Part shown: positions 5,970-54,486 of the stretch, piece by piece
Numbering within the stretch: position 1 is the stretch's first letter
Layout: each line of letters starts with the position of its first letter
Source: a virus
Lineage: Duplodnaviria; Caudoviricetes
Virus record (IMG/VR): IMGVR_UViG_3300036906_000230
Location: 1-56,792 of that record
DNA length: 56,792 nt
Direction: 5' to 3' (one strand)
The notes under the pieces: model-generated
What the model saw: the letters and a program-made list of their open reading frames with translations, nothing else
Database searches by the model: none
Told to the model about the DNA's origin: nothing
Program-made: the position numbers and the translations under genes

Positions 5970-6414
5970 TTCTCTTTCCTTCGGCGCGCCAACCGTTCAC
6001 TGGCGCGCCGTACCAGAACTCTGCCGTCCGAATCGCGTGCCCCAGGAAGGGCGAGGCAAAATCGCGCCGCCGGCCGTTGGCTTTCCGCGATCCCACATGC
6101 ATCAACCAGCGGTCGCCATCGCGCACGAGCCACACCAGAGTGCCGCCGCAAGTCCCGGTAACACATGTGGCGTCGGCAGGGATTGGCGTTTGCTCGACGG
6201 CTACCGACTCGACGCTGATCGGCCGCGAAGCGACCCATTTCGCGTATGGGATGAATTTGTCATCGACCCACACGTGGAGTAGAGCATCCGCATCTTCGTA
6301 CGGCGCGTCGGCTGGCACGTCTGCCAGCGTGATCAGGCGGGCCGAGACCGTGTTTCCGGCCTCGCGTTCCTGACGCGCTTCGCGCATGGCCGCACGGCTG
6401 TAAAAGCCGTTCAT
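5905..6414 (-). CDS. Hypothetical phage protein
   Basis: ATGA overlap with the MTase stop; operon position. Confidence 0.6.
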   Translation of the reverse strand: MNGFYSRAAMREARQEREAGNTVSARLITLADVPADAPYEDADALLHVWVDDKFIPYAKWVASRPISVESVAVEQTPIPADATCVTGTCGGTLVWLVRDGDRWLMHVGSRKANGRRRDFASPFLGHAIRTAEFWYGAPVNGWRAEGKRNGSGNVGDSSGQEARAEAANG

Positions 6415-7928
6415 GCCGCCTCCGTGAGGACGCGGTCGACGTGGTCAATGCGCTGGCCGATCCAGCGCATGACCGGAACTGCCATGGAGTTGCCGATTGC
6501 CTTGTACCGGGGCCCGTCCGGAGTGGCGCCCAATCGAATGGCTTCCTCGATCGGGATTCCCAAATAGCAGGCCATCTCCTCGATCTCTTCCGCGCGGAGT
6601 CTCTGCCGGTAGTTCGGGATAAGCGTCCAGTCGTCGGGAAATCCCTGCAGCCGCTCGCACTCGCGCGGTGTGAGCCTTCTGACGGCGATCCACGTGGCCA
6701 ACAGCGGTGCGCCGTCGCCCCGGCCGGAACTCCCCGACTGCGCCTTCAATGGCGGGGCGACGACATCGGGCGCGCCGCGACCGTTGCGCGCGAAGCGGGA
6801 CTCGAAGACCATGGGGACGCCGATGTTGCCGCCATCGGTGGCCAGGATCGGCGGTGTCACCTCGCGTGGAACGAACCCGTCCTGGCCGCAGCCGCGGAAT
6901 GCCACCGCGATCTGTCCGCCCGCGTTCGGATGCGAGGCGTCGTGGCCCATGGCACGCAGCGTCGGCGCAAGGTCGTCCATGGCATCGGCGCCATGGTCCT
7001 TGCACGAGAACGCGATTGGTACCAGCAGGTTGGATTCGGCGTCCTGCTGAGTCGCACTGCCCGCCGCCTTACCGTTTGAGTTCAACGTTCCACAGGGTTC
7101 GCAAACCGGGAGGATGGGAATGCCGCGCCCGCTGCCGTCCTCCGTTGCGTCGAATCCCTCGCCACGGAGTGTATGCGCGACGAGGTTGTGGTGCTCGTTG
7201 CCGCTGGGCCCGCTGGTCCGCTTGGCCCACTTCGCGCTTACGGAGTGCTGGACGACTTCGGCGGGGAGGATGTGGCCGGCCTGGGCTTGCTTTGGATCGC
7301 CGCCACACGTTCCAAGGCTGTTCGCAGTGATGGCGGTAACGACCTCCCGCGGCTTCCGGCGCGGCGCAAGATCCCGGCGCAGGCTTTCGCGCTCAAAAAG
7401 TACCGCAGCGGCAGCCTGCCATGCTCCAGCAAATCCAACAACGAAGACGCGGCGGCGGCGCTGGGGCACTCCGAAGTGCTGAGCGTCCAGAATTCGGTAA
7501 GCGGTCCCATACCCGAGTTGAGCCAGGGTCCGGAGGATGGTTCCAAACGTCCGTCCTGAGTCGATCGACAGCACACCAGGGACGTTCTCCCAGACGACCC
7601 ACCGAGGTCGAAGGCGCTTAACAGCGCCGAGGAATTCCAGCGTGAGGTTGCCACGCGGGTCATCCATTCCAAGCCGGTGGCCCGCGACGCTAAAGGCCTG
7701 GCAGGGAGTTCCTCCGACGAGAAGCTCAACTGGAGTTGTTCCGATGCGCCTGAGCCAGTGCCCCCGAATCGCCGTGAAATCGCCAAGGTTCTTTACCTCC
7801 GGATAGCGGTGCGCCAGGACCGCGCGCGCGAACGGATCGATCTCGGCGAACCACGCGGGGCGCCAGCCCAGGCTGTGCCAGGCGACGGTGGCCGCTTCGA
7901 TGCCCGAGCACACCGACCCGTAGGTCAC
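6411..7928 (-). CDS. Phage C5-cytosine DNA methyltransferase
   Basis: SVCSGIEA, GGTPCQAFS, WENVPG, PQRRRRVF, RRLTPRECERLQGFP, YKAIGNS motifs. Confidence 0.95.
   Translation of the reverse strand: MTYGSVCSGIEAATVAWHSLGWRPAWFAEIDPFARAVLAHRYPEVKNLGDFTAIRGHWLRRIGTTPVELLVGGTPCQAFSVAGHRLGMDDPRGNLTLEFLGAVKRLRPRWVVWENVPGVLSIDSGRTFGTILRTLAQLGYGTAYRILDAQHFGVPQRRRRVFVVGFAGAWQAAAAVLFERESLRRDLAPRRKPREVVTAITANSLGTCGGDPKQAQAGHILPAEVVQHSVSAKWAKRTSGPSGNEHHNLVAHTLRGEGFDATEDGSGRGIPILPVCEPCGTLNSNGKAAGSATQQDAESNLLVPIAFSCKDHGADAMDDLAPTLRAMGHDASHPNAGGQIAVAFRGCGQDGFVPREVTPPILATDGGNIGVPMVFESRFARNGRGAPDVVAPPLKAQSGSSGRGDGAPLLATWIAVRRLTPRECERLQGFPDDWTLIPNYRQRLRAEEIEEMACYLGIPIEEAIRLGATPDGPRYKAIGNSMAVPVMRWIGQRIDHVDRVLTEAA
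7238..7786 (-). CDS. Nested alternative-frame ORF, M.EcoHK31I beta-polypeptide-like
   Basis: 182-codon out-of-frame ORF inside the MTase with WLNSGM...FWTLSTSECPS...SLLDLLE...RYFLSAKACAGILRRA, a pattern recalled from such overlapping polypeptides; start uncertain. Confidence 0.65.
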   Translation of the reverse strand: MAISRRFGGTGSGASEQLQLSFSSEELPARPLASRATGLEWMTRVATSRWNSSALLSAFDLGGSSGRTSLVCCRSTQDGRLEPSSGPWLNSGMGPLTEFWTLSTSECPSAAAASSLLDLLEHGRLPLRYFLSAKACAGILRRAGSRGRSLPPSLRTALERVAAIQSKPRPATSSPPKSSSTP

Positions 7929-24300: not shown

Positions 24301-25697
24301 AGCCCGCCGTCGACCTTGAAGCCCTGCGGCGGCTGGCCGTCGAGCATGGGCGCGATGATGTAGCGGTAGCCGTCAGCGTTCTGGTAGACCAGCATGCCGG
24401 TATACCCGCCGATTGGGCCTGCGCCCACGATGCCCAGGGCGTCGTAGAAATCGGATTCGTCCCGGCCCGCCGCGATCATGCAATTGACCCAGAACGCCTT
24501 GCCCGGGTCGCCATCGTCGTTGCACCAGATCTCCTGGAGAGCGTTGCCCCAGATGGTGTCCGAGATGATCGAGGTCGCCGTCACCGTGCTTCGTCCAAAG
24601 CCCCACAGCCCGGTCGAGTTGTCCTTGATGACTACGCCCTGCGGTTCGGCGGGATGGCCGCCGAAGTAGGGAGTCATCCCGTGCGCCTGGCAGCCGTTGG
24701 TGGAATCGAAGTAGTAGTCGCAGGAAGCCGGGTCGCCGCCGTGACCGTGCGTTGCGTAGGGACAGTTCACGCCATCGCTGAAGGTTTTCCAGCACTGCCG
24801 CGAGATCGCGCGCGGCGGGTACATCTGCGTGATCTGGTACAGGCCGTCGCTGGCGCGCACGGTGAATTGCGGCGAGCCATCAGACACGAAACCGACGATG
24901 AACCCCGACCACAACTGGAGCAGGATGCCGGTATTGACGTGGTACAGCGACAGGTCGATGCTGGCGAACTTCAGATCCGTGTCGTTGGCGAGGGCGGTCA
25001 TCGCGCGGTCGGCGTTTCCGAACGTGAATTGGACGTTGTCGGCGGTTCCCTTGATGTCCTGGGAGATGATGACATCCGAACCGGGCTCGCCCAGACCGAG
25101 CACACGTGGCAGGTATAGTTGGCCGCCGACCGTGCAGCGACGGTCCGAGAGATAGATGTCGGGTACGGCCTGCTCGCGCACGCGGATGTGGATCAGCGGA
25201 ATGATTTGCTGGACCTGAGAAAGAAGCGCAGTTTGGAGCGTGCTGGACGGGAATCGCAGGCAGGTGGAATTGACGGGATAGCTGGGCGCGGCCGACGGAT
25301 TGGGGACCTCTATGAAGTTGAACCCGACCTGGCAGGCGTTCGCCAGATACTGGATTGAGAGAGGCGCGTACTCCCAGGTCACCTTCGTGGAGCTGGTGGT
25401 CTGGTCGGCGTTCGGCACGTTGTAGGTGAAGGACTTCCAGGCACCTTGCAGGCTCTCCCAGAAGGAGACCAACGACGCGCGGTCGCGCATGCTGAGGTGT
25501 TGCCGGCGGAAGGCGAACTTGCGCGAACCGATGCCGACGGCGAATCTCTGTTCGGCTTTGGCGTCCAGCTCGCCGAACTGATGCACGACGACGGGACGCT
25601 CCTGGGTGAACCCGTAGCCGAAATCGCCGGTGAACGGGAACGTCAGGCCCGAATCGACGAGCGAGGGCACACTGATGCGGCCGATGGTGTCGGACAT
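21312..25697 (-). CDS. Tail tip/hub (host-specificity-type) protein
   Basis: 1461 aa downstream of TMP and Dit; CWKTF..CPY..CDY..GCQ cysteine cluster typical of tail-tip proteins. Confidence 0.75.
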   Translation of the reverse strand: MSDTIGRISVPSLVDSGLTFPFTGDFGYGFTQERPVVVHQFGELDAKAEQRFAVGIGSRKFAFRRQHLSMRDRASLVSFWESLQGAWKSFTYNVPNADQTTSSTKVTWEYAPLSIQYLANACQVGFNFIEVPNPSAAPSYPVNSTCLRFPSSTLQTALLSQVQQIIPLIHIRVREQAVPDIYLSDRRCTVGGQLYLPRVLGLGEPGSDVIISQDIKGTADNVQFTFGNADRAMTALANDTDLKFASIDLSLYHVNTGILLQLWSGFIVGFVSDGSPQFTVRASDGLYQITQMYPPRAISRQCWKTFSDGVNCPYATHGHGGDPASCDYYFDSTNGCQAHGMTPYFGGHPAEPQGVVIKDNSTGLWGFGRSTVTATSIISDTIWGNALQEIWCNDDGDPGKAFWVNCMIAAGRDESDFYDALGIVGAGPIGGYTGMLVYQNADGYRYIIAPMLDGQPPQGFKVDGGLNVTSDNPTMGLREVAGNDPQSNSFSLGQGSPQVWGPETAAGTAFVEIRRTDQSGIQPTTTDQHQMQVPIAQGLTGWTWDQNGNRTAVTGLTNPFWIAVNSLLRALGSSGANSTVQVGMFVLPSLFVGDGSGTAEIADDLVTPILGLGVEKQFRFQGVLAQQKPFRDWLTEILACGLGYFTWEFGKLKLGCRINASATDAFTIGNFLFQSLRLEPVDASFEHLIIDFADQAYQYQANTAEYQDKTHAAYYSRSGAPVTARQHLVGCATLSQALRLAAVRTREEIGGVNAAEWRNARNASWKTTILALGTEVGQVVSITHPDVPGMKGTCSVTSGQCGNLTGDALDTFIVNKEVLINGVQCTVTQIFTSADYKTVTGFAVSPAPANSSNATFQFITGDFRIQSWRLNKDWSINITAKTVTASMYDLTVGPKPLDVAPSPLPALFYPIPFGPAWAPYQIQARADDALFPGEWTFDTNQSYAQMADGSMLANLLVTGKLPTNTFSPGVGAPVAGSIAVSATGGSLVGGTTIRLTLCALDSNGLPSAPMAIAIVPLPVVTPTNVTTYSITLNNVVWPAVAGLKNYAIFAAAQDDLICGQQLGTFGGVIASGALTSTGDGTVYTPGTITFAGPLQRSTFALPSPYVSSVRLKAKHEIHGGIIGASVDSVSAGTLVSGYLKGAPPASNPSFTPVGRIVSIIGRPESATPFFSGRITSWDQTTGTIGVTPDPNGIVQEGDCFVIRFNADASNSASPTSITDSGCQNIVYPGGMTPGAEVGNLVRVIQGASRGTPPRKIVSNTATAIAWDLPMVINPGDVWIVEEPTWPYSCDTTSLDNANPLAVATINMPTGNFVDETLVIAGFTVDINGNESPDGDAPIREDWVFGAEGLSKVAGLVFQMQGTLGIESNAAQPLYLNRPVTVGDVKAYVQAAPTGAPITFTIYVGGAAWLTLTIPAGQTVVVATPSQIGTLTEIPANTAVSIGITAVGNTFPGAGLSVFLYS

Positions 25698-45340: not shown

Positions 45341-45485
45341 TCGAAGCCTCCAGGATTTCCAACGCTTCCTTCATCGGGTGCCACAGCCCGGTCTTCGGGT
45401 CGCGGTAGCGCACCCAACCACGGTCCGCATTCGTCCGGTATGCCCAGCCGGCATCGGTCAGCCTCGCGTGATTACTACGTTCCAT
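45321..45485 (-). CDS. Small hypothetical protein (54 aa, MERSNHARL...), not in the ORF track
   Basis: CAGGAGG RBS; overlaps the MTase stop. Confidence 0.55.
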   Translation of the reverse strand: MERSNHARLTDAGWAYRTNADRGWVRYRDPKTGLWHPMKEALEILEASNGIAVV

Positions 45486-46806
45486 TGCGCGCCTCCTGCG
45501 AGTGGCTCACCGGATGAGCCACCTCAACTTCGACCGCCAGATCGTTGAACGCGCGGCCGGAGTCGGCGTGCCGCGCGACGTCGCCCGTGTATTCCTGCCA
45601 GCGACGAATCGCCACGTCGCAGTACCTGGGCTCCAATTCGACCAGCCGTGCCTGCCGACCCGCCTTCTCGCAAGCGATCATCGTTGTCCCGGATCCTCCA
45701 AACGGGTCGAGGACGGTGTCGCGCGTCTTGCTGCTGTTGCGGAGCGCGCGCTCGACCAACTCCACCGGCTTCATAGTCGGGTGCTCCTGGCTGCTTGCGG
45801 GCCGCTTGATGAACCAGATGTCGCCCTGGTCCCTGGCGCCGCACCAGAAGTGCTCGGTTCCCTTGCGCCAGCCGTAGAGAATCGGTTCGTACTGTCGCTG
45901 GTAATCCGATCGGCCCAGCGTGAAATGGTGCTTCGCCCAAATCACGAACGTGGACCAGTAGCCGCCCGCATCCGCGAATGCCTGGTAGAGCGTGTGCAGC
46001 TCCGACGACGACATGCAGACGTAAATTGCGCCCTTGGTGACCGCCAGCATGTTGGCGCTGGCGTCCCGCAGGAATTCATAGAACTTGCCGGCCAGAGCAT
46101 CGTTACCGATCTTGAGCTTCCTGGCGGTCTTGCCCTCGTAGTCGACGTTATACGGAGGATCGGTGAAGACCATGTCGGCCAGCCCGCCGGCCATGATCTT
46201 TTCGATATCGGCCATTTGCGTGGCGTCGCCGCACAGCAAGCGATGCTCGCCCAGCAGCCACACATCGCCGAGGACCGTAACAGCCTTCTCCTGCTCGTCC
46301 GGAACCGCATCGTCCTCGGTCAATCCGTCGTGCGTCTCTTCAGGCGCCAGGAGATCCTCAATCTCCTCGTCGGTGAAGCCAACGATATCGAGATCGAAGT
46401 TTTCTTCCTTTAGCGACGTCAACTCGACGCGCAACATCTCCTCGTCCCAACCGGCATTCATCGCCAGGCGGTTGTCCGCGAGCACCAGCGCGCGGCGCTG
46501 CGCCGGAGTAAGGTGGTCGAGGACGATGACTGGGACATCGGCCATCTTCAACTTGCGCGCCGCCGCCAGGCGCGCATGGCCGGCGATGATGACGCCATCG
46601 CCGCCCACCAGAATAGGATTCGTCCACCCGAACTCGATGATGGATGCCGCAACCTGCGCCACCTGCTCGTCGCTGTGCGTCCGTGCGTTCCGCGCGTAAG
46701 GAATGAGGCGGTCGATGGGCCAGCGTTCGACAACGAGATCGCGCAGAACACGCTCCGTGATGGTGGCGCTCACATGATGCTTGGCTGTGTCCTGCGCGAT
46801 CTGCAT
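45475..46806 (-). CDS. ParB-N-terminal + N6/N4 DNA methyltransferase (DPPY)
   Basis: RNARTHS, IIAGHAR, FTDPPY, HPTMKPV, DPFGGSG motifs. Confidence 0.92.
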   Translation of the reverse strand: MQIAQDTAKHHVSATITERVLRDLVVERWPIDRLIPYARNARTHSDEQVAQVAASIIEFGWTNPILVGGDGVIIAGHARLAAARKLKMADVPVIVLDHLTPAQRRALVLADNRLAMNAGWDEEMLRVELTSLKEENFDLDIVGFTDEEIEDLLAPEETHDGLTEDDAVPDEQEKAVTVLGDVWLLGEHRLLCGDATQMADIEKIMAGGLADMVFTDPPYNVDYEGKTARKLKIGNDALAGKFYEFLRDASANMLAVTKGAIYVCMSSSELHTLYQAFADAGGYWSTFVIWAKHHFTLGRSDYQRQYEPILYGWRKGTEHFWCGARDQGDIWFIKRPASSQEHPTMKPVELVERALRNSSKTRDTVLDPFGGSGTTMIACEKAGRQARLVELEPRYCDVAIRRWQEYTGDVARHADSGRAFNDLAVEVEVAHPVSHSQEARNGT

Positions 46807-47092: not shown

Positions 47093-47611
47093 TTACGCCG
47101 TCGGCTTGGCCTGGGTCTGGGAAGGGGTTGACGCACCACCCGAAGCCGTCACGACGACGGGCACCAGCGCCGCGATCGTCTGCGAGATCGCGGCAGCAAG
47201 AGCGCTCGCGATCACCGGCGTGAGCGACGTGAACAGGTTCGCAACGTTGGCCGTGACAGCCTCCGCGCTCACCGCCTCACCCGCTCCGGCCGCCGCGACG
47301 GCGCCCTTGGTGGTTTCGCTGGCCGCAGTGCCTGCGGGCGACACGGTCTGCTGACCCTCGGTCGTGCCGACCTGACCGGCCAGCACGATGCCGGCGTTGA
47401 TGGCGTGGTCGATAGTGGCCGCGTTCTGCGCGCGGCGGCTGGCGGTCTGCGCCAAGTCCAGCGAGACCGCTTCCCAAGCGCGCTGCCGCGCCAGGGTTTC
47501 GCGACGGTTGTCGAGCTCCTCGTCGAAGAGGAGTTTGATGTTCTCGGCGCCGCCCAACAGACTGGGCTGATGGGTGACACACGGAGAGAGATTCGGATTA
47601 CCTTCTGCCAT
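47093..47611 (-). CDS. Ala/Thr-rich helical hypothetical protein
   Basis: AAAGGA RBS; clean codon usage. Confidence 0.7.
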   Translation of the reverse strand: MAEGNPNLSPCVTHQPSLLGGAENIKLLFDEELDNRRETLARQRAWEAVSLDLAQTASRRAQNAATIDHAINAGIVLAGQVGTTEGQQTVSPAGTAASETTKGAVAAAGAGEAVSAEAVTANVANLFTSLTPVIASALAAAISQTIAALVPVVVTASGGASTPSQTQAKPTA

Positions 47612-47689
47612 ACGGGAAATGTCCTTTCGGTTGAAATTCGGATTGGTTATGCGGCCTGGAACACCAGGCCGCGAAATGGAGAAGCGAGA

Positions 47690-47761
47690 CGCTCGATGTT
47701 TTTGGTTCCCTCAATCTGCTTGGCTCGCTCAAGGAGCATGGCGCTCCCGATGTCGATGGCT
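47690..47761 (-). ncRNA. TIGR-like mini-array A2 (2 units)
   Basis: Minus strand: (TA)AGCCA tcgacatc GGGAGCGCCA tgctcctt GAGCGAGCCA agcagatt GAGGGAACCA aaaacatc GAGCG. Confidence 0.8.
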
Positions 47762-49317
47762 TACGAAGCCTTTCGCTGTGGCCCATAGTGCGGGTTCGGG
47801 CCCGTGTGTTTGATGGCTCGCGAATCCTGGGTTTTGGAATTCAATGCGGCATCCGGGTCTACGCCGCGCGACTCGGCAACCTCCGCGTACGGCTGGCCGG
47901 TCGATTCAAGCACCGCCGCCGCGCCAGCCAGATTGACCAACCGCCGCACAATCACATCGCAGTAGGACGGCGAGATTTCACATCCATAGCCGACGCGGTC
48001 CAATAATTCCGCGGCAGCCATCGTGGTTCCGGAACCGAGGAATGGATCGTGGATCACGTCGCCAGCGTCGGAAAACGCGAGCACGAAGAACTCAACCAGC
48101 GCCCGCGGAAACGGAGCGGAGTGTGATCCCTGGCTGCTCTCCGACTTCACTTCGATCACGTTGCTGGGACGCGCCAGCCCCGTGTGACGGCCCTCCGAAT
48201 CGCTCGACAGACTCGACCGTGTTCGGCACCACGCTCCCTGATTCTTCCCGCCATCGGCGGCCGCGCCGCGGACTCCGGTACCCAGTAGCCCGCTTCCGGA
48301 CCGTGACTTCGGGTTGTTAGGCGAGTACTCAAAGCAGTCATCCGATTCGTGGCCCACCGCCTGGGGCCGGAACTTGATCCGCTGCTGGCGGCAGAAATGG
48401 TAAATCGGCTCGAAAGCATTCTTGAAACGGTTCCCCCAGCCGCCAGGCACGCCGTTGTCGGTCTTGCGCCAGCAAAACTCGTCTACGAAACGCCAGCCCC
48501 ACTGACGCCGATGCGCCAGCACCAGATCCATCACGTACAGATTCCGCTCGCCCTCGTCGGCGTGCGCTTTGATATTCAGGAAGTAGGAGCCGTCCGGTGC
48601 AAGGACCGACTCCACGCCGCCGGCCACCTCGCGGAACCACTCCACGTACTCCTCTGGCGGAACCGGCTTAAACCCGCTCGCCAGATCGTATTCGCGCTGC
48701 GTGGCGTAGGGCGGCGATGTGATGCAGACACTCGCGCGCGCACCGGACGGGAATAGCGTGGCGAGAACATTCCGGTCCCTGCAATCGCCGCACACCAGCC
48801 GGTGCTTTCCGATCAACCACGCGTCGCCAGGCCGGGTGACCGGCTCGGTGGGCGGCTCGGGAACGTCTTCCTCTGCGTCGTCCGGTACTTCCGGTTCGAC
48901 CAGCAGGCTTTCCAATTCTTCGTCGGAGAAGCCCACCACCGCGAGGTCAAGTCCCTCGCCCTCGAGTTCGCGCAACTCCGCGGCCAGCACCTTTTCGTCC
49001 CAGCCGGCATTAAGCGCCAGCTTGTTGTCCGCGATGATGTAGGCCCGCCGTTGAGTCTCGGAGAGATGATCCAGCACCACTACTGGGCATTCCGCGAGAC
49101 CCAACTTACGCGCCGCCAGGAGGCGGCCGTGGCCGGCCACGATCCCGGCGTCGGAGGCCACCAGGATCGGAGCATTAAAACCGAACTCGACAATCGAAGC
49201 CGCGATCTGCGCGATTTGCTCTGGAGAATGCGTCCGCGCGTTGCGCGCGTAGGGTACGAGGCGATCAAGTGGCCATAGTTCGATTCGGCGGGCCATCGAG
49301 AGAGTCGAAGCGCTCAT
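47761..49317 (-). CDS. ParB-N-terminal + N4/N6 DNA methyltransferase (SPPY)
   Basis: RNARTHS, IVAGHGR, ITSPPY, HSAPFP, DPFLGSG motifs; start at 49317 or 49296 (the longer ORF-track extension runs through the array). Confidence 0.9.
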   Translation of the reverse strand: MSASTLSMARRIELWPLDRLVPYARNARTHSPEQIAQIAASIVEFGFNAPILVASDAGIVAGHGRLLAARKLGLAECPVVVLDHLSETQRRAYIIADNKLALNAGWDEKVLAAELRELEGEGLDLAVVGFSDEELESLLVEPEVPDDAEEDVPEPPTEPVTRPGDAWLIGKHRLVCGDCRDRNVLATLFPSGARASVCITSPPYATQREYDLASGFKPVPPEEYVEWFREVAGGVESVLAPDGSYFLNIKAHADEGERNLYVMDLVLAHRRQWGWRFVDEFCWRKTDNGVPGGWGNRFKNAFEPIYHFCRQQRIKFRPQAVGHESDDCFEYSPNNPKSRSGSGLLGTGVRGAAADGGKNQGAWCRTRSSLSSDSEGRHTGLARPSNVIEVKSESSQGSHSAPFPRALVEFFVLAFSDAGDVIHDPFLGSGTTMAAAELLDRVGYGCEISPSYCDVIVRRLVNLAGAAAVLESTGQPYAEVAESRGVDPDAALNSKTQDSRAIKHTGPNPHYGPQRKAS

Positions 49318-49420
49318 CAATACTGGTTCACTCATCTGGCCTGGCTCGCTCTCAAAACTTGGCGCTCTCAAAGGAGATGGCTCGCTCCATTCCCCGGGTG
49401 CTCTCAACGGACGTGGCTGC
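49310..49420 (-). ncRNA. TIGR-like mini-array A3 (3 units)
   Basis: Minus strand: GCAGCCA cgtccgtt GAGAGCACCC ggggaatg GAGCGAGCCA tctccttt GAGAGCGCCA agttttga GAGCGAGCCA ggccagat GAGTGAACCA gtattgat GAGCGC. Confidence 0.85.
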
Positions 49421-49529
49421 ACATCGCGTCGCCCTTTGCGCCCCCGTTGGCCCACGTTGCGCCTGGTGGCGGCAGATTGGCCCGTTGTACCAGCCGTTCC
49501 TGGCGGCGCGAACAGGGCGCGCCGGTGGC

Positions 49530-49620
49530 CGACCGGTGACCGGGAATTTTTCGGCGTGGCGCAAGTGAAACGCGGCTATTCTTCAACGCGCCGCCGCCGC
49601 GCGCCGGGAAGTACCTATCG
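49530..49620 (-). other. Putative cos/packaging initiation region
   Basis: AGGTACTTCC (resembles lambda cosQ GGGTCCT) followed by GC-rich GGCGGCGGCG; non-coding, upstream of the MTase-terminase block. Confidence 0.45.
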
Positions 49621-49631
49621 AAGCATTAAGC

Positions 49632-49667
49632 CGCTCATGCCCCATGGTTCTCTCGGACGGCATGGCT
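49632..49667 (-). ncRNA. TIGR-like single unit A4
   Basis: Minus strand: (TG)AGCCA tgccgtcc GAGAGAACCA tggggcat GAGCG; exact 18-nt spacing. Confidence 0.75.
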
Positions 49668-50098
49668 CAATACGCGAAGTCGGCCAGCACCAGATCGCTG
49701 GCATCCCATGCATAGCCCGCGACGGGGCTGATCTTCATCGCGGTGGCGTCGTAGGTGTAGTCATCGCCCGCCGATTGACGAACGCCGTTCCGATATACCC
49801 TCAACGAAGCGGCAGTTGCTGCTTGCGACAAGAGGTATGTGCCATCGGCCTGGCGCGCGGGCTTCGACCCAACCACCACGTTGGGCGTTGCCGCCTGGAT
49901 TGTATAGCCGCTGCCGTTGGCGACGAGCGTGACGCCAGCGCCAACGCTCGCCACGACGACTTGGCCGGCTGGCGTCACCACCAGCACGCCGCCGTTCGCG
50001 AGCGCGGGTGCAAGCAGCATCCCGATGCGGACGGTGGTGGGCCCGGCCCACAACACCACCGCCATCAGCACGACTCCGATAATCGCTTTACGCAGCAT
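49667..50098 (-). CDS. Hypothetical exported/membrane protein
   Basis: N-terminal signal/TM segment; LRVYRNGVRQSAGDDYT beta motif. Confidence 0.65.
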   Translation of the reverse strand: MLRKAIIGVVLMAVVLWAGPTTVRIGMLLAPALANGGVLVVTPAGQVVVASVGAGVTLVANGSGYTIQAATPNVVVGSKPARQADGTYLLSQAATAASLRVYRNGVRQSAGDDYTYDATAMKISPVAGYAWDASDLVLADFAY

Positions 50099-50258: not shown

Positions 50259-50594
50259 TCACACCAGGCAGTCGAGCACGACCGCCATGAAGACGGGTCG
50301 CAGCGCTGCGGGCGCCAGCGTTGAGTCGGAGCTGCCGCCCTGCAACGGCCGGAGCCTCCAGCACTCATGCCCGTCGTCGAGCTTCTGCTCAAAGGAATAG
50401 CCTTGCCCCTGGTAATCGCGAACCGTGGTGGGACGGCGCGGATCGCAGGCACGGCGGCGCAGGACGACGCGATTGATCGTGCCCTTCTTGTGGCGCACGA
50501 CCTTGGCGATGCCGTCGCGTTCCAAACGAAGCGCGTGCCGCCGGCCGATAAAATCAATCAGAGCGAAATCGAAGGTATAGAGCGGGATGGACAT
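50259..50594 (-). CDS. Hypothetical phage protein
   Basis: First ORF downstream of the 50733-50762 promoter. Confidence 0.6.
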   Translation of the reverse strand: MSIPLYTFDFALIDFIGRRHALRLERDGIAKVVRHKKGTINRVVLRRRACDPRRPTTVRDYQGQGYSFEQKLDDGHECWRLRPLQGGSSDSTLAPAALRPVFMAVVLDCLV

Positions 50595-50730: not shown

Positions 50731-50762
50731 CGATTATGGCAAAACGACATAATCGTAGTCAA
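50731..50762 (-). promoter_or_regulatory. Putative sigma70 promoter with overlapping palindromic operator
   Basis: TTGACT-18 nt-CATAAT; inverted repeat CGATTATG-N9-CATAATCG (50731-50755). Confidence 0.65.
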
Positions 50763-52752: not shown

Positions 52753-53598
52753 GTGATGTCAGATAATGGAAAGAGAGGGTCTTCTATGAACTTCGACCCG
52801 AACGAGCATGCGGAATTTCTAGGTCAGGTGCGGCGAATCCAGGCGAGCAAGCGGTTTGCCAACGCGCCCAAGGCCAAAACTCTTCTCAACTACATCGTGG
52901 AAAAGGCGCTGGAGGGTCTCGAAGGCGACCTGAAGGAGACCTCGATCGCGCAGGCGCTGTACGGCAAGGGGCCGAACTTCGATCCAGGGAACGACCGGAT
53001 CGTGAGCCAGGCCGCCGGTGACCTGCGGAAGAAGCTGAGCGAATACTATGCCGACGAGGGGCAGCGCGACCCCTGTGTGATCGCGATCCCCATAGGGAGT
53101 TTCGTTCCTGAGTTCAGGACTCGATCCAAGTCGGCGCCACCCGCCGCACTCCCGACTCCATCACCCGACGCAAGGAAGGTCGGCGCGAAACGGCGCTGGG
53201 TTTTGAAGACGTCGGTGGCTGCAGCGGCGGCGGCGATGATCCTGATTGGCGTGCTGTTTGCGCAGCACGCGGCCTCCAAGGTGCGAATCACGAGTCCCGA
53301 AAACGGGGCCACGGTCGGGCCGGTCGGGGACATCACCGGCAAAGGCTGGGAACCGAAGCTAAACAACTACCTGATCGTGGAGCCGGTCGACCAGTCCGGC
53401 CAGCGGTGGGTCCAGGCTCAGATCGCCTCGGCCGAGTGGACGCGGAGCGTGCACTTCGGGCAGGGCGACACGCCTTCGGGGATGCACTACCGGATCTATG
53501 TCATATCCACATCGACGGTGCTGCCGGTAGGTGAGCTCACCAAGCAGCCGGAGAACCCGCAGGAATCACCGGCGATCACCGTCACGCTGCGGAAGTAA
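52753..53598 (+). CDS. Membrane-anchored protein with N-terminal wHTH-like domain and extracytoplasmic beta domain
   Basis: LLNYIVEKAL..LKETSIA...FDP..DRIV...LRKKLSEYY...IPIGSFVPEF; TM helix AAMILIGVLFA. Confidence 0.7.
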   Translation: MMSDNGKRGSSMNFDPNEHAEFLGQVRRIQASKRFANAPKAKTLLNYIVEKALEGLEGDLKETSIAQALYGKGPNFDPGNDRIVSQAAGDLRKKLSEYYADEGQRDPCVIAIPIGSFVPEFRTRSKSAPPAALPTPSPDARKVGAKRRWVLKTSVAAAAAAMILIGVLFAQHAASKVRITSPENGATVGPVGDITGKGWEPKLNNYLIVEPVDQSGQRWVQAQIASAEWTRSVHFGQGDTPSGMHYRIYVISTSTVLPVGELTKQPENPQESPAITVTLRK

Positions 53599-53673
53599 CG
53601 GCTTTCAAATATTTGCGTCCTGGCGAGTCCGTCTTGCTGTTCAAACATAATCGGTTGCGAGAGAATTGGGCTG

Positions 53674-54486
53674 ATGCCCAGTAAACCGAACGAGACTCAG
53701 CTTCGGATGGTTGAACTCCTGAAGCAGTGCCCAGATGGGATGACGTGCGGCCAGCTTCGTCGCGAACTCGAGAGAGAGGGGCTCCAATCGGACGAGCAGA
53801 CCCACTTGGATCGCCGCTACCGGGATCTTCCGAAGTGGTACAGAATTGAAAAGAGCAGGGTCAAAGAAGTTGTTGGCGGCAAGACAGTTTCGGTGGTCAA
53901 ATACGCGTATCGTGGTGAACGGGGAACGATTACAGATCAAGGCCAGGTAAGCCAAAAGTTGAGAGCCGAAGTGATTCATGCGGCTCATGGCAGGTGCCAG
54001 ATGTGCGGCCGAACCGTGCAAACGCACGGCATCAGCTTGGTTGTAGATCACAAGAAGCCAAGAGATTGGGGCGGGACCAATGACCGCGAGAATCTCTGGG
54101 CCATCTGCGAAGAGTGCAATGGCGGCAAGAAGGCATACTTCTCTTCACTGAACGTGGACGCGGAGTTCATGAAGAAGGTCACTTCACACGAGAGCGTCCA
54201 CGTTCGAATCGGCGAAACTCTCAAGGCCGTCGGGATAGGGAAGCGCACCCCGCCTGAGATTCTGGACATCGTAGCCGATCAGGAGGACTGGCACAAGCGC
54301 CTTCGAGAACTTCGCTATCCGGTGATCGGATGGGAGATCGACACAGTTCCCTACAAGACCCCGTCTGGCAGGAAGAAGGTTGACTACGTGCTGAAGAAGT
54401 ACAAGCCGTGGCCCACTGATCCGACCGCGAAGATCAGACAGTTCGAGCAGGAGCGGCAGCGCCGGAACGCGGGCGAACAAGATTAG
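53674..54486 (+). CDS. HNH endonuclease (putative restriction component)
   Basis: CQMCG, VVDHKKPRDWGGTNDRENLWAICEECN. Confidence 0.85.
   Translation: MPSKPNETQLRMVELLKQCPDGMTCGQLRRELEREGLQSDEQTHLDRRYRDLPKWYRIEKSRVKEVVGGKTVSVVKYAYRGERGTITDQGQVSQKLRAEVIHAAHGRCQMCGRTVQTHGISLVVDHKKPRDWGGTNDRENLWAICEECNGGKKAYFSSLNVDAEFMKKVTSHESVHVRIGETLKAVGIGKRTPPEILDIVADQEDWHKRLRELRYPVIGWEIDTVPYKTPSGRKKVDYVLKKYKPWPTDPTAKIRQFEQERQRRNAGEQD

What the first reader, a model, noticed from the sequence alone, without database searches (positions are those of the whole stretch)
47690..49667. Three satellite guide arrays with identical repeats lie 36-39 kb from tasA, in the packaging region
Seen: A2 (47690-47761, 2 units), A3 (49310-49420, 3 units) and A4 (49632-49667, 1 unit) use the same repeats and 8-nt spacers as A1, on the same strand. 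A2 and A4 begin exactly at a stop codon (TAA-GCCA, TGA-GCCA), A1 begins 6 nt after one, and A3 ends on a possible ATG. Inference: a distributed guide repertoire cut out of polycistronic mRNA, like intercistronic box C/D sRNAs. One early-expressed Tas protein would then use early (A1) and late-operon (A2-A4) guides.
Basis: partly seen in the sequence, partly recalled or inferred. Interest (0 to 1): 0.9.

Follow-up and report, generated by a model that had tools for sequence, protein, structure and literature searches.

The report
Scattered TIGR guide arrays in phage
A peat-soil phage keeps small blocks of guide RNAs for its one RNA-guided DNA-binding protein (TasA) far from that gene, packed between other genes, and some of these guides nearly spell the neighbouring genes as related phages write them.

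Summary
On the minus strand there are 36-nt dual-repeat TIGR units (AGCCA-N8-loop-N8-GAGCG) at 47690-47761 (2 units), 49311-49418 (3) and 49632-49667 (1). They share the edge repeat GAGCGAGCCA with the 3-unit array beside tasA (14 pattern hits against 0.10 expected).

The 279-aa protein is a nuclease-less Tas. It matches solved TasR and TasH structures and keeps the Y/H RNA-processing pair.

Related phages that share the methylase module but lack tasA have no intact units. Scattered arrays recur in about 1 in 10 phages carrying this repeat family.

No guide matches its own genome. Three of the five guides flanking the methylase gene match the neighbouring genes of tasA-less relatives at 14-15 of 16 positions, in the correct TIGR geometry (P about 0.002-0.006). 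No perfect allele was found.

Co-transcription and early/late timing remain inferred. The TIGR papers I read surveyed at most 10 kb around tas. This scan has already noted scattered arrays, kin-matching guides and in-frame units on other DNA.

The parts
10175..11014 (-). tasA: 279-aa nuclease-less Nop-domain Tas protein (P0001), with the Y258/H265 processing dyad
   Evidence: phmmer against PDB: 9mty_A 1.2e-19, TasH 21kl_A 2.7e-12, Nop part only. phrog_4285 3.9e-48. Y/H aligned to SpTasH Y289/H296.
8448..10178 (-). ParB-like / phrog_2045 fusion gene overlapping the tasA stop by 4 nt (tasParB-like partner)
   Evidence: PHROG hits to ParB-like families at residues 10-169 and to phrog_2045 at 332-542. 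ORF coordinates. tasParB-tasA operons are described in PMC12045711 sections 10 and 44.
11031..11138 (-). A1, the primary TIGR array: 3 units between the DUF2303 gene and tasA
   Evidence: The equivalent arrays in syntenic relatives G006 (3 units) and L200 (2 units) have entirely different spacers.
14976..15011 (-). Single perfect unit, in frame (12 codons, EPHVRREPSGTS) in the variable linker of the SNF2 helicase gene 13531-15228
   Evidence: Pfam SNF2-rel_dom starts at residue 118.
46751..46786 (-). Single unit (1 mismatch; loop starts GTG) in frame in codons 7-19 of ParB-methylase 1 (45475-46806)
   Evidence: Eroded homologous units with other spacers and CCG in place of CCA occur in relatives.
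47690..47761 (-). A2, satellite array of 2 units. Its first base is the last A of the TAA stop of ParB-methylase 2
   Evidence: It is an insertion relative to 10 of 13 aligned relatives; L170 and L158 carry an eroded unit at the same site.
47651..47672 (-). Conserved hairpin between A2 and gene 47093-47611, with a compensatory change relative to relatives
47761..49296 (-). ParB_N + N6_N4 DNA methylase 2, flanked by A3 and A2 (alternative in-frame ATG at 49317)
   Evidence: Pfam N6_N4_Mtase 1.5e-35, ParB_N 5.6e-05. Paralogue of methylase 1.
49311..49418 (-). A3, satellite array of 3 units, between a conserved leader and the methylase 2 start
   Evidence: Contigs from independent DNA runs are identical or near-identical over it, and one RNA-library contig spans 49031-49434.
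49432..49618 (-). Conserved non-coding leader upstream of methylase 2, bracketed by A4 and A3
   Evidence: blastn 74.6% over 193 nt to L174, directly upstream of its methylase homologue. Contigs of all four laid runs diverge at 49618.
49632..49667 (-). A4, a single perfect unit. Its first base is the A of the TGA stop of ORF 49667-50098
47529..47544 (.). Resident site in gene 47093-47611 that matches guide A2.2 at 13/16. The same site in relatives matches at 15/16
48563..48578 (.). Resident site in methylase 2 that matches guide A2.1 at 11/16. Relatives match at 14/16
   Evidence: The resident count was made by hand from the sequence.

Best explanation
A2, A3 and A4 are genuine dual-repeat TIGR arrays of the phage's single TIGR-TasA system, as are two single units embedded in genes.

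Shown: the units have the defining anatomy. The one Tas protein on the contig is a nuclease-less TasA that keeps the RNA-processing dyad. Intact units occur only where tasA occurs.

Inferred: the arrays have no room for their own promoter or terminator, so they are probably transcribed as part of the neighbouring genes' mRNAs. TasA would then cut them in the edge repeats into 36-nt tigRNAs and load them in trans. Each guide would direct a TasA dimer, perhaps with the ParB-like partner encoded behind tasA, to a 16-bp DNA site read as spacer A plus the reverse complement of spacer B. The outcome would be binding or repression, not cleavage.

The targets are not in this phage's own genome. For the A2 guides, and less clearly A3.1, the best candidates are the alleles of the flanking genes (the ParB-methylase and gene 47093-47611) carried by related phages that lack the system. 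That would make the satellites tools of competition between related phages.
For: Anatomy and statistics.

Tas identity and Y/H dyad.

All sites begin and end at the mature tigRNA ends. PMC12045711 section 4 describes truncated edge repeats at array ends.

Co-occurrence with tasA: 0 of 45 related loci have arrays around the methylase homologue. 0 of 10 long relatives have TasA, and 0 of 10 have a unit at 1 mismatch or fewer. TasA-less relatives L170 and L158 carry eroded units at the A2 site.

Tight co-oriented packing between genes is the rule in other phages with this repeat, with gaps of 1-60 nt.

The same layout recurs elsewhere: one tasA with arrays 10-22 kb away in G002-G005. G016 has units about 22 kb apart, but its tasA was not located.

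The arrays are identical in independent peat and permafrost DNA runs, and an RNA-library contig spans A3 and the methylase 5' end.

Kin matching: within homologues of the two flanking genes, A2.2 reaches 15/16, A2.1 reaches 14/16 and A3.1 reaches 14/16. Controls reaching 14 or more were 17 of 660 shuffled, 4 of 110 mispaired and 0 of 55 in other geometries. None of these 825 controls reached 15.
Against: There is no direct evidence that the arrays are transcribed, cut or bound. The one RNA-library contig could be DNA carry-over, comes from a variant strain (9 differences, 5 gaps), and shows neither strand nor ends.

Single units and array ends have only half edge repeats. [quoted passage not shown]

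No allele matches guide A2.2 or A2.1 perfectly in the viral or metagenome collections. A perfect match would need an amino-acid change in a conserved motif.

The resident sites' lower match (13/16 and 11/16) is not beyond ordinary divergence. Gene-wide DNA identity to relatives is 79-88%, and a third of 16-nt windows differ at 3 or more positions.

The other eight guides have no candidate target.

Across 846 guides against 2.1 Mb of related DNA there were 0 exact hits and only a mild excess of 15/16 hits: 57, against 34-46 in mispaired controls.

Both tasA-bearing close relatives (G006, G031) are incomplete and show no satellites in what is held.
Confidence: 0.68

Rival explanations
1. The satellites are inert remnants: pieces of arrays carried in by recombination between mosaic phages. 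They are no longer used and persist only because they are recent.
For: They are short (1-3 units) and lie at mosaic junctions. Contigs of all four laid runs diverge at 49618. Relatives carry a C5-methylase gene where the window has ORF 49667-50098 plus A4. Some loops deviate from the pattern (GGG or GTG start; CCC instead of CCA). Eroded units exist in relatives. No perfect target is known.
Against: Erosion is seen only in relatives for which no tasA was found. In the window, 6 of 11 units are perfect and 5 have one mismatch, and the tasA-adjacent array A1 deviates as much as the satellites. Every site keeps exact tigRNA ends. The near-matches of 3 of 5 flanking guides to neighbouring-gene homologues, in the correct geometry only, are not expected of junk.
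Confidence: 0.14
2. The units act mainly as TasA-dependent RNA cleavage sites in cis. Cutting at edge repeats would separate or destabilise the flanking cistrons (methylase 2, gene 47093, and the SNF2 and methylase 1 mRNAs that carry a unit inside the reading frame). TasA level would then tune those genes, and the released RNAs would be by-products.
For: The arrays abut stop and start codons, and two units lie inside coding sequence. The Y/H dyad is present. Xu et al. 2026 raise a link between tigRNA maturation and translation for units inside tas.
Against: This is pure inference. It does not explain why spacers differ completely between equivalent arrays of relatives, nor why the A2 and A3.1 spacers resemble neighbouring genes in the TIGR target geometry. 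Half edge repeats at the ends may not be cut.
Confidence: 0.09
3. The guides regulate the phage's own genes: TasA acts as a self-directed repressor of the neighbouring methylase and gene 47093.
For: TasA proteins repress transcription when given a matching guide (Xu et al. 2026, section 12). The resident genes match guides at 13/16 and 11/16.
Against: No guide matches its own genome at 14/16 or better in the window (0 of 11). The count of 13/16 hits (9) is at the level of mispaired controls (6.4). The same holds for 111 guides of four other phages.
Confidence: 0.05

Closest known systems
Dual-repeat TIGR-TasA systems, especially the tasParB-tasA operons (Faure et al. 2025, PMC12045711; main text read, supplements closed)
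   Same: Nop-only Tas protein. [quoted passage not shown] 10-nt repeats. Both repeat types end in CCA and share a start. Array ends have truncated edge repeats. A ParB-like gene sits in an operon with tasA. The host element is a phage.
   Different: Published surveys took 5 kb (Faure) or up to 10 kb (Xu et al. 2026) around tas and describe arrays upstream, downstream or between the genes. Here three arrays lie 36.7-38.7 kb from tasA, beside unrelated genes. Spacers are 8 nt rather than the usual 9.
Intragenic tigRNAs inside tas genes (Xu et al. 2026, bioRxiv 10.64898/2026.09.09.750476, sections 5 and 11 read)
   Same: A guide unit written in frame in a disordered part of a protein without breaking the reading frame.
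   Different: That paper reports units inside the tas coding sequence only, mostly in stem-loop systems. Here the units are dual-repeat and lie in an SNF2 helicase linker and a ParB-methylase N-terminus.
SpTasH of Salicola phage CGphi29 (structures 9W03 and others; PMC13421893 section 15 read)
   Same: Phage-borne, dual-repeat, 8-nt spacers (16 nt in all, per PMC12045711 section 6). The Y289/H296 dyad that cuts pre-tigRNA is conserved in the window's TasA.
   Different: SpTasH has an N-terminal HNH nuclease. The window protein has no nuclease domain, and the aligned part is 28% identical.
Virus-borne CRISPR mini-arrays and free-standing homing endonucleases of phages (recalled, not looked up here)
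   Same: Short guide sets, or nucleases, carried by a virus and aimed at close relatives. The homing genes sit beside the gene they attack, and the resident copy is immune.
   Different: No CRISPR repeats or Cas proteins, and no nuclease in TasA. Neither exclusion nor gene conversion has been shown.
Archaeal and eukaryotic box C/D sRNAs in polycistronic or intronic settings
   Same: Nop-domain partner, two guides per RNA, and release from longer transcripts.
   Different: No K-turn or L7Ae, no fibrillarin, DNA rather than RNA targets, and 36-nt units with minimal boxes (PMC12045711 discussion).

Membership tests
TIGR-Tas (dual-repeat class) | Tas protein with a Nop RNA-binding domain | tested here: met
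   phmmer against PDB: 9mty_A 1.2e-19 and TasH 21kl_A 2.7e-12, over the Nop part. phrog_4285 over residues 16-276.
TIGR-Tas (dual-repeat class) | Arrays of two alternating 8-12-nt repeats separated by short spacers, with a 36-nt unit | tested here: met
   11 units of 5+8+10+8+5 nt at six sites. 14 pattern hits against 0.10 expected.
TIGR-Tas (dual-repeat class) | Box C (CCA) at the end and a shared box D at the start of both edge and loop repeats | tested here: met
   Edge GAGCGAGCCA. Loops follow GAGNGNNCCA in 7 of 11 units; the other four each change one base (GAA, GGG or GTG at the start, or CCC at the end). Box D here is GA(G), not the UG of TasR; the paper says such motifs covary between the two repeats.
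TIGR-Tas (dual-repeat class) | Arrays begin and end with truncated edge repeats | tested here: met
   All six sites start with AGCCA and end with GAGCG, and the flanks are unrelated to the other half of the edge repeat. Feature as described in PMC12045711 section 4.
TIGR-Tas (dual-repeat class) | C-terminal Y/H dyad for pre-tigRNA processing | tested here: met
   Y258 and H265 align with SpTasH Y289 and H296 in the HMMER alignment. Residue roles from PMC13421893.
TIGR-Tas (dual-repeat class) | Array adjacent to tas (within 5-10 kb in published surveys) | tested here: not met
   Met for A1 (17 nt from tasA). Not met for A2-A4 (36.7-38.7 kb) or the SNF2 unit (4 kb, but inside another gene). This is a survey limit rather than a stated definition.
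TIGR-Tas (dual-repeat class) | Transcription, processing to 36-nt tigRNAs and loading on Tas | not testable with these tools
   The only data are an RNA-library contig over A3, which shows neither ends nor strand.
TasA subtype | No HNH or RuvC nuclease domain | tested here: met
   279 aa. Only about 68 residues precede the part aligned to TasR/TasH. The Pfam HNH_3 hit (20.3 bits, cut-off 24.8) lies inside the Nop C-terminus and is below threshold.
Box C/D sRNP | K-turn-forming C/D boxes with L7Ae and fibrillarin partners | tested here: not met
   No Rfam family reached its gathering score on either strand of the window. The units lack RUGAUGA/CUGA boxes. No fibrillarin or L7Ae was found among the proteins scanned, which are only part of the gene set.

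The most novel reading that the evidence does not exclude
Satellite TIGR arrays work as RNA-guided counterparts of free-standing homing or exclusion cassettes. Each small array sits beside the gene whose foreign alleles its guides recognise. During co-infection, or superinfection of a lysogen, TasA (with its ParB-like partner or a phage nuclease) marks that gene in a related phage that lacks the system. This would silence the rival gene or provoke repair from the array-bearing genome. The array and its linked resistant allele would then spread, and arrays would seed new sites as exact 36-nt units, including in-frame sites inside genes. If so, TIGR-Tas would have natural targets and a route of array spread, both of which the published papers call unknown.
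Probability: 0.2. Interest if true: 0.85.

Novelty: new variant of a known kind. Interest (0 to 1): 0.6.

Why it matters
TIGR-Tas was described only in 2025. The papers I read state that its natural targets, the origin of its spacers and the way arrays arise are unknown (PMC12045711 discussion; Xu et al. 2026 discussion). Their array surveys stop 5-10 kb from tas.

This window shows three things. One TasA can be served by small arrays tens of kilobases away and by units inside other genes. Such units are intact only in the tasA-bearing phage. Some distal guides resemble the neighbouring genes of tasA-less relatives, in the correct two-strand geometry.

That makes two open questions testable with defined sequences: what TasA targets in nature, and how guide units spread. 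It also means that array finders restricted to the tas neighbourhood undercount guides.

Tried and rejected
Self-targeting. Composites of spacer A plus the reverse complement of spacer B were searched in the window (11 guides) and in four other phages (111 guides). Nothing reached 15-16 of 16, and 13-14 of 16 counts equalled those of mispaired controls. The first-stage 13/16 resemblances inside the window are therefore at chance level on their own.

ParB link. The genes flanking distal arrays in four other phages were scanned (20 proteins). None had a ParB or methylase domain. The hits were DUF1153, SMC-like, DUF5681, DUF3799, DUF3150 (weak), HTH_17 (weak) or nothing. A general array-ParB-methylase link is not supported.

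Second Tas near the satellites. ORF 47093-47611 shows no similarity to TasA (E 76) and has no PHROG hit.

Palindromic targets. Spacers A and B of 846 guides are only slightly more alike than shuffled pairs (38 against about 24 at 5-6 of 8 positions). I did not pursue this.

Targets in related DNA. 846 guides were searched against 2.1 Mb of related DNA. There were 0 exact hits. 15/16 hits numbered 57, against 34-46 in controls. The two other 15/16 hits of window guides (in L058 and L134) lie in unrelated genes.

A1 guides. Guides of the window, G006 and L200 were searched against each other's tasA regions. Nothing exceeded 14/16.

Perfect-match alleles of the A2.2 and A2.1 targets were sought with degenerate flanks. 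None was found in viral contigs or metagenome contigs.

Comparison of the satellite region in tasA-bearing relatives failed. G006 ends at the portal gene. G031 is 66% complete and shows only its primary array. ORF 49667-50098 has no relatives in viral contigs.

DNA of the SNF2 homologues P0003 and P0004, whose proteins show a P-xxx-REP-xxx-S pattern at the unit's place, could not be fetched. That point rests on protein sequence only.

Promoter and terminator scans found nothing next to the arrays and were at shuffle level. They are no evidence either way for an unknown host.

The parts of the laid stretch without cover in the RNA run X16 say nothing.

Literature. Searches (badly posed and uninformative) found no paper describing distal TIGR arrays or units in non-tas genes. 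I read sections of PMC12045711 and of 10.64898/2026.09.09.750476, passages of 10.64898/2026.08.11.744272 and 10.64898/2026.07.30.739390, and passages plus section 15 of PMC13421893. Supplements are closed. Table S1 and figures S4 and S14 of Faure et al., and the TIGRSafari resource, may show distal arrays that I could not see. The preprint 10.64898/2026.09.22.753630 appeared in a listing but could not be opened.
Full report
WHAT IS THERE. The window is a whole 56,792-bp virus record, 62% G+C, with nearly all genes on the minus strand.

It looks like a temperate phage. Going down the minus strand from about 50.6 kb, the order is:
- small ORFs;
- two paralogous ParB_N + N6_N4 DNA methylase genes;
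- terS, terL, portal, head and tail genes;
- an SNF2 helicase and a DUF2303 gene;
- tasA, a ParB-like fusion, a C5 methylase, primase and helicase;
- an integrase at the far end.

Names attached to SNF2 homologues point to Acidobacteriota hosts. The DNA recurs in peat and permafrost metagenomes.

THE OBSERVATION. On the minus strand, the pattern AGCCA-N8-GAGNNNNCCA-N8-GAGCG occurs 14 times at up to 2 mismatches, against 0.10 expected. These hits are 11 in-phase units at six sites plus 3 out-of-phase hits.
- A1, 11031-11138: 3 units.
- 14976-15011: 1 unit.
- 46751-46786: 1 unit, one mismatch.
- A2, 47690-47761: 2 units.
- A3, 49311-49418: 3 units.
- A4, 49632-49667: 1 unit.

No further unit with 3 or fewer mismatches exists. 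Internal edge repeats are all GAGCGAGCCA. Loop repeats vary around GAGAGMRCCA. Spacers are 8 nt. Every site starts at AGCCA and ends at GAGCG. These are the ends expected of mature tigRNAs, and they fit the 'truncated edge repeats' that Faure et al. describe at array ends.

A1 lies 8 nt, not 6 nt, after the preceding stop.

THE PROTEIN. ORF 10175-11014 (279 aa) matches the Nop part of the solved TasR (9mty_A, 1.2e-19) and TasH (2.7e-12). It matches phrog_4285 over its whole length. It has no room for a nuclease domain, and the Pfam HNH_3 hit is below threshold and lies inside the Nop C-terminus. In the HMMER alignment its Y258 and H265 fall on SpTasH Y289 and H296. Those are the residues that cut pre-tigRNA in the edge repeat (PMC13421893 section 15; Xu et al. 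section 10). It is therefore a TasA of the dual-repeat class.

The next gene overlaps the tasA stop and encodes a ParB-like domain fused to a phrog_2045 domain. This resembles the tasParB-tasA operons of Faure et al., which also have 10-nt repeats. No second Tas lies near the satellites.

SETTING OF THE SATELLITES. A4 begins on the stop codon of ORF 49667-50098. Next comes a 187-nt leader (49432-49618), which is conserved upstream of the methylase homologue of relative L174. In all four laid runs, contigs diverge at its upstream end. A3 sits between that leader and the start of ParB-methylase 2. A2 begins on that gene's stop codon and is followed by a conserved hairpin and then gene 47093-47611.

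The arrays are thus co-oriented with their neighbours and packed tightly between genes. The same tight co-oriented packing, with gaps of about 1-60 nt, is seen for arrays of this repeat family in nine other phage records (crude gene calls).

The two single units are in frame. One supplies 12 codons of the hypervariable linker of the SNF2 helicase. The other supplies codons 7-19 of ParB-methylase 1.

COMPARISON WITH RELATIVES.

(a) Two syntenic tasA-bearing relatives carry the A1-equivalent array, with every spacer different. G006 has TasA at 75% identity and 3 units. L200/G031 has TasA at 75% identity and 2 units. Spacers therefore turn over far faster than the genes. Both records are incomplete and do not reach, or do not show, the satellite region.

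(b) Forty-five loci share the module methylase 2 - gene 47093 - methylase 1 - terS - terL, with gene 47093 at up to 99% protein identity.
- None has arrays around the methylase 2 homologue.
- Five have one unit-like sequence (2 mismatches or fewer), always at the methylase 1 N-terminus.
- In the alignment, A2 is an insertion between the stop codon and the conserved hairpin.
- L170 and L158 carry an eroded single unit there, starting on the stop codon as in the window.
- The methylase 1 units of relatives are homologous to one another, have CCG where box C should be CCA, and have spacers unlike the window's.

(c) Ten long records of these relatives (24-58 kb, 33-100% complete) were searched.
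- 0 of 10 have TasA. The same search found TasA in 4 of 5 other records.
- 0 of 10 have a unit at 1 mismatch or fewer.
- There were two hits at 2 mismatches, one of them the methylase 1 site.

Intact units therefore go with tasA.

HOW COMMON IS SCATTERING. A TasA homologue lies inside 64 of these 118 stretches.

By my count from the table, these are 109 contigs, of which 51 are 40 kb or longer. Five of the 51 have pattern loci more than 10 kb apart.
- Whole-record searches of those five gave 17-85 half-unit-pair matches each, and none for the reversed control pattern.
- G001 and G003 share arrays and so represent one lineage.
- In the four records fetched whole, a single tasA was found, with arrays 10-20 kb away.

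Of 14 records chosen without regard to this feature (G007-G020), 1 has units more than 10 kb apart: G016, at about 22 kb. Wide scattering is therefore a recurrent minority layout, roughly one in ten.

TARGETS. Faure et al. state that DNA is cut 5' of the base that pairs with the fifth guide base after box C, leaving 3' overhangs. This fixes the target as spacer A followed by the reverse complement of spacer B.

With this geometry no guide matches its own genome beyond chance, in the window or in four other phages.

I then searched the 45 related loci, restricted to homologues of the two genes that flank A2 and A3.
- Guide A2.2 reaches 15/16 in 26 loci and 14/16 in 13 more. The site lies in gene 47093 homologues.
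- Guide A2.1 reaches 14/16 in 14 loci. The site lies in methylase 2 homologues.
- Guide A3.1 reaches 14/16 in 3 loci. The site is the ParB motif of methylase 2 homologues.
- Controls reaching 14 or more: 17 of 660 shuffled-spacer composites, 4 of 110 mispaired composites and 0 of 55 composites in other geometries.
- None of the 825 controls reached 15.
- The chance of 3 or more of 11 guides reaching 14 is about 0.002-0.006.

In most matching loci the spacer-B half pairs perfectly, and the mismatches lie in spacer A. The resident sites match less well, at 13/16, 11/16 and 11/16 (two counts made by hand).

Points against. The resident genes differ from relatives by 12-21% at the DNA level, so three differences in 16 nt is ordinary. 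No perfect-match allele exists in the viral or metagenome collections. A perfect match would need Lys to Asn or Asn to Asp in conserved motifs. The other eight guides have no candidate target.

I read this as moderate evidence that the A2 spacers, and perhaps A3.1, are related to the neighbouring genes of kin phages. They could be guides aimed at those genes, or traces of where the spacers came from.

EXPRESSION. Contigs of three DNA runs from other samples cover A2, A3 or A4 with no or one difference, so the arrays are stable in nature. One 409-nt contig of a peat metatranscriptome run covers 49031-49434, that is, A3 and the methylase 5' end. It has 9 differences and 5 gaps. It comes from a variant strain, and DNA carry-over cannot be excluded. 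Timing (early or late) is untested.

WHAT IS KNOWN. TIGR-Tas, TasA, dual-repeat arrays, the tasParB association, Tas-mediated processing, repression by TasA and guide units inside tas genes are all published.

The surveys extracted 5 kb or up to 10 kb around tas. In the text I could read, I found no mention of arrays tens of kilobases away, of units inside non-tas genes, or of natural targets (finds; searches). Supplements were closed.

Earlier notes of this scan, which are unchecked AI notes, report the same three features on other DNA:
- scattered arrays with one distant TasA;
- guides that match neighbouring genes as related phages write them;
- in-frame units in non-tas genes.

My tests here were made independently on this window and agree with them.

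VERDICT. The finding is real and is a member of the TIGR-TasA family with an unreported layout. The trans-acting, co-transcribed model is the best reading but is inferred. The kin-matching of the A2 guides is the most interesting lead and remains open.

Noticed in passing
window 14976-15011: A perfect TIGR unit lies in frame in the variable linker of the SNF2 helicase. Protein homologues at 74% and 70% identity (P0003, P0004) show the same P-xxx-REP-xxx-S frame with other 'spacer' residues. More distant homologues, G006 and L200 lack it.
   Followed up: partly
window 46751-46786; L155, L158, L160, L165-L167: A unit sits in the first 20 codons of ParB-methylase 1. Relatives for which no tasA was found keep a homologous but eroded unit there (CCG instead of CCA) with different spacers. 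Others (L170, L179, L189) lack the whole N-terminal extension.
   Followed up: yes
window 49432-49618: A conserved non-coding leader lies upstream of methylase 2. Its first ~45 nt are near-identical in L174. Contigs of all four laid runs diverge exactly at 49618, suggesting a mosaic junction or a shared regulatory element.
   Followed up: partly
window 47651-47672: A hairpin upstream of gene 47093-47611 is conserved in relatives, with a compensatory change (CCCGG/CCGGG in relatives, CCTGG/CCAGG here). It has no T-run, so it is not a classical terminator.
   Followed up: no
window 6411-7928 versus L155 and other loci: In relatives a C5 methylase homologue sits directly upstream of the methylase 2 homologue. 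In the window that gene lies near tasA, about 40 kb away, and ORF 49667-50098 plus A4 take its place.
   Followed up: no
all 846 guides from fetched loci; window spacers: Spacer base composition is close to uniform, while the phage genomes are 59-62% G+C. Window spacers are about 53% G+C (my hand count).
   Followed up: no
G003 53548-53801 and G001 24339-24592: Seven repeats recur with a 37-nt period, each with an edge-like GAGCGAGCCA between two 8-nt segments. This is a different register from the 36-nt units and is unexplained.
   Followed up: no
G016 12110/16738 and 12146/34654: Identical or half-identical guide units recur in different arrays of one phage, so array pieces are copied within a genome.
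   Followed up: no
window 50733-50762 (minus strand): This was the best sigma-70-like site in the region (TTGACT-18-CATAAT with a TG). It lies upstream of ORF 50259-50594 and could drive the string that contains A4, A3 and A2. The scan overall was at shuffle level.
   Followed up: no
window 11031-11066: Guide A1.3 has similar spacers (ATGGGCGC and ATGGGCAA), which gives a near-palindromic 16-bp target.
   Followed up: partly
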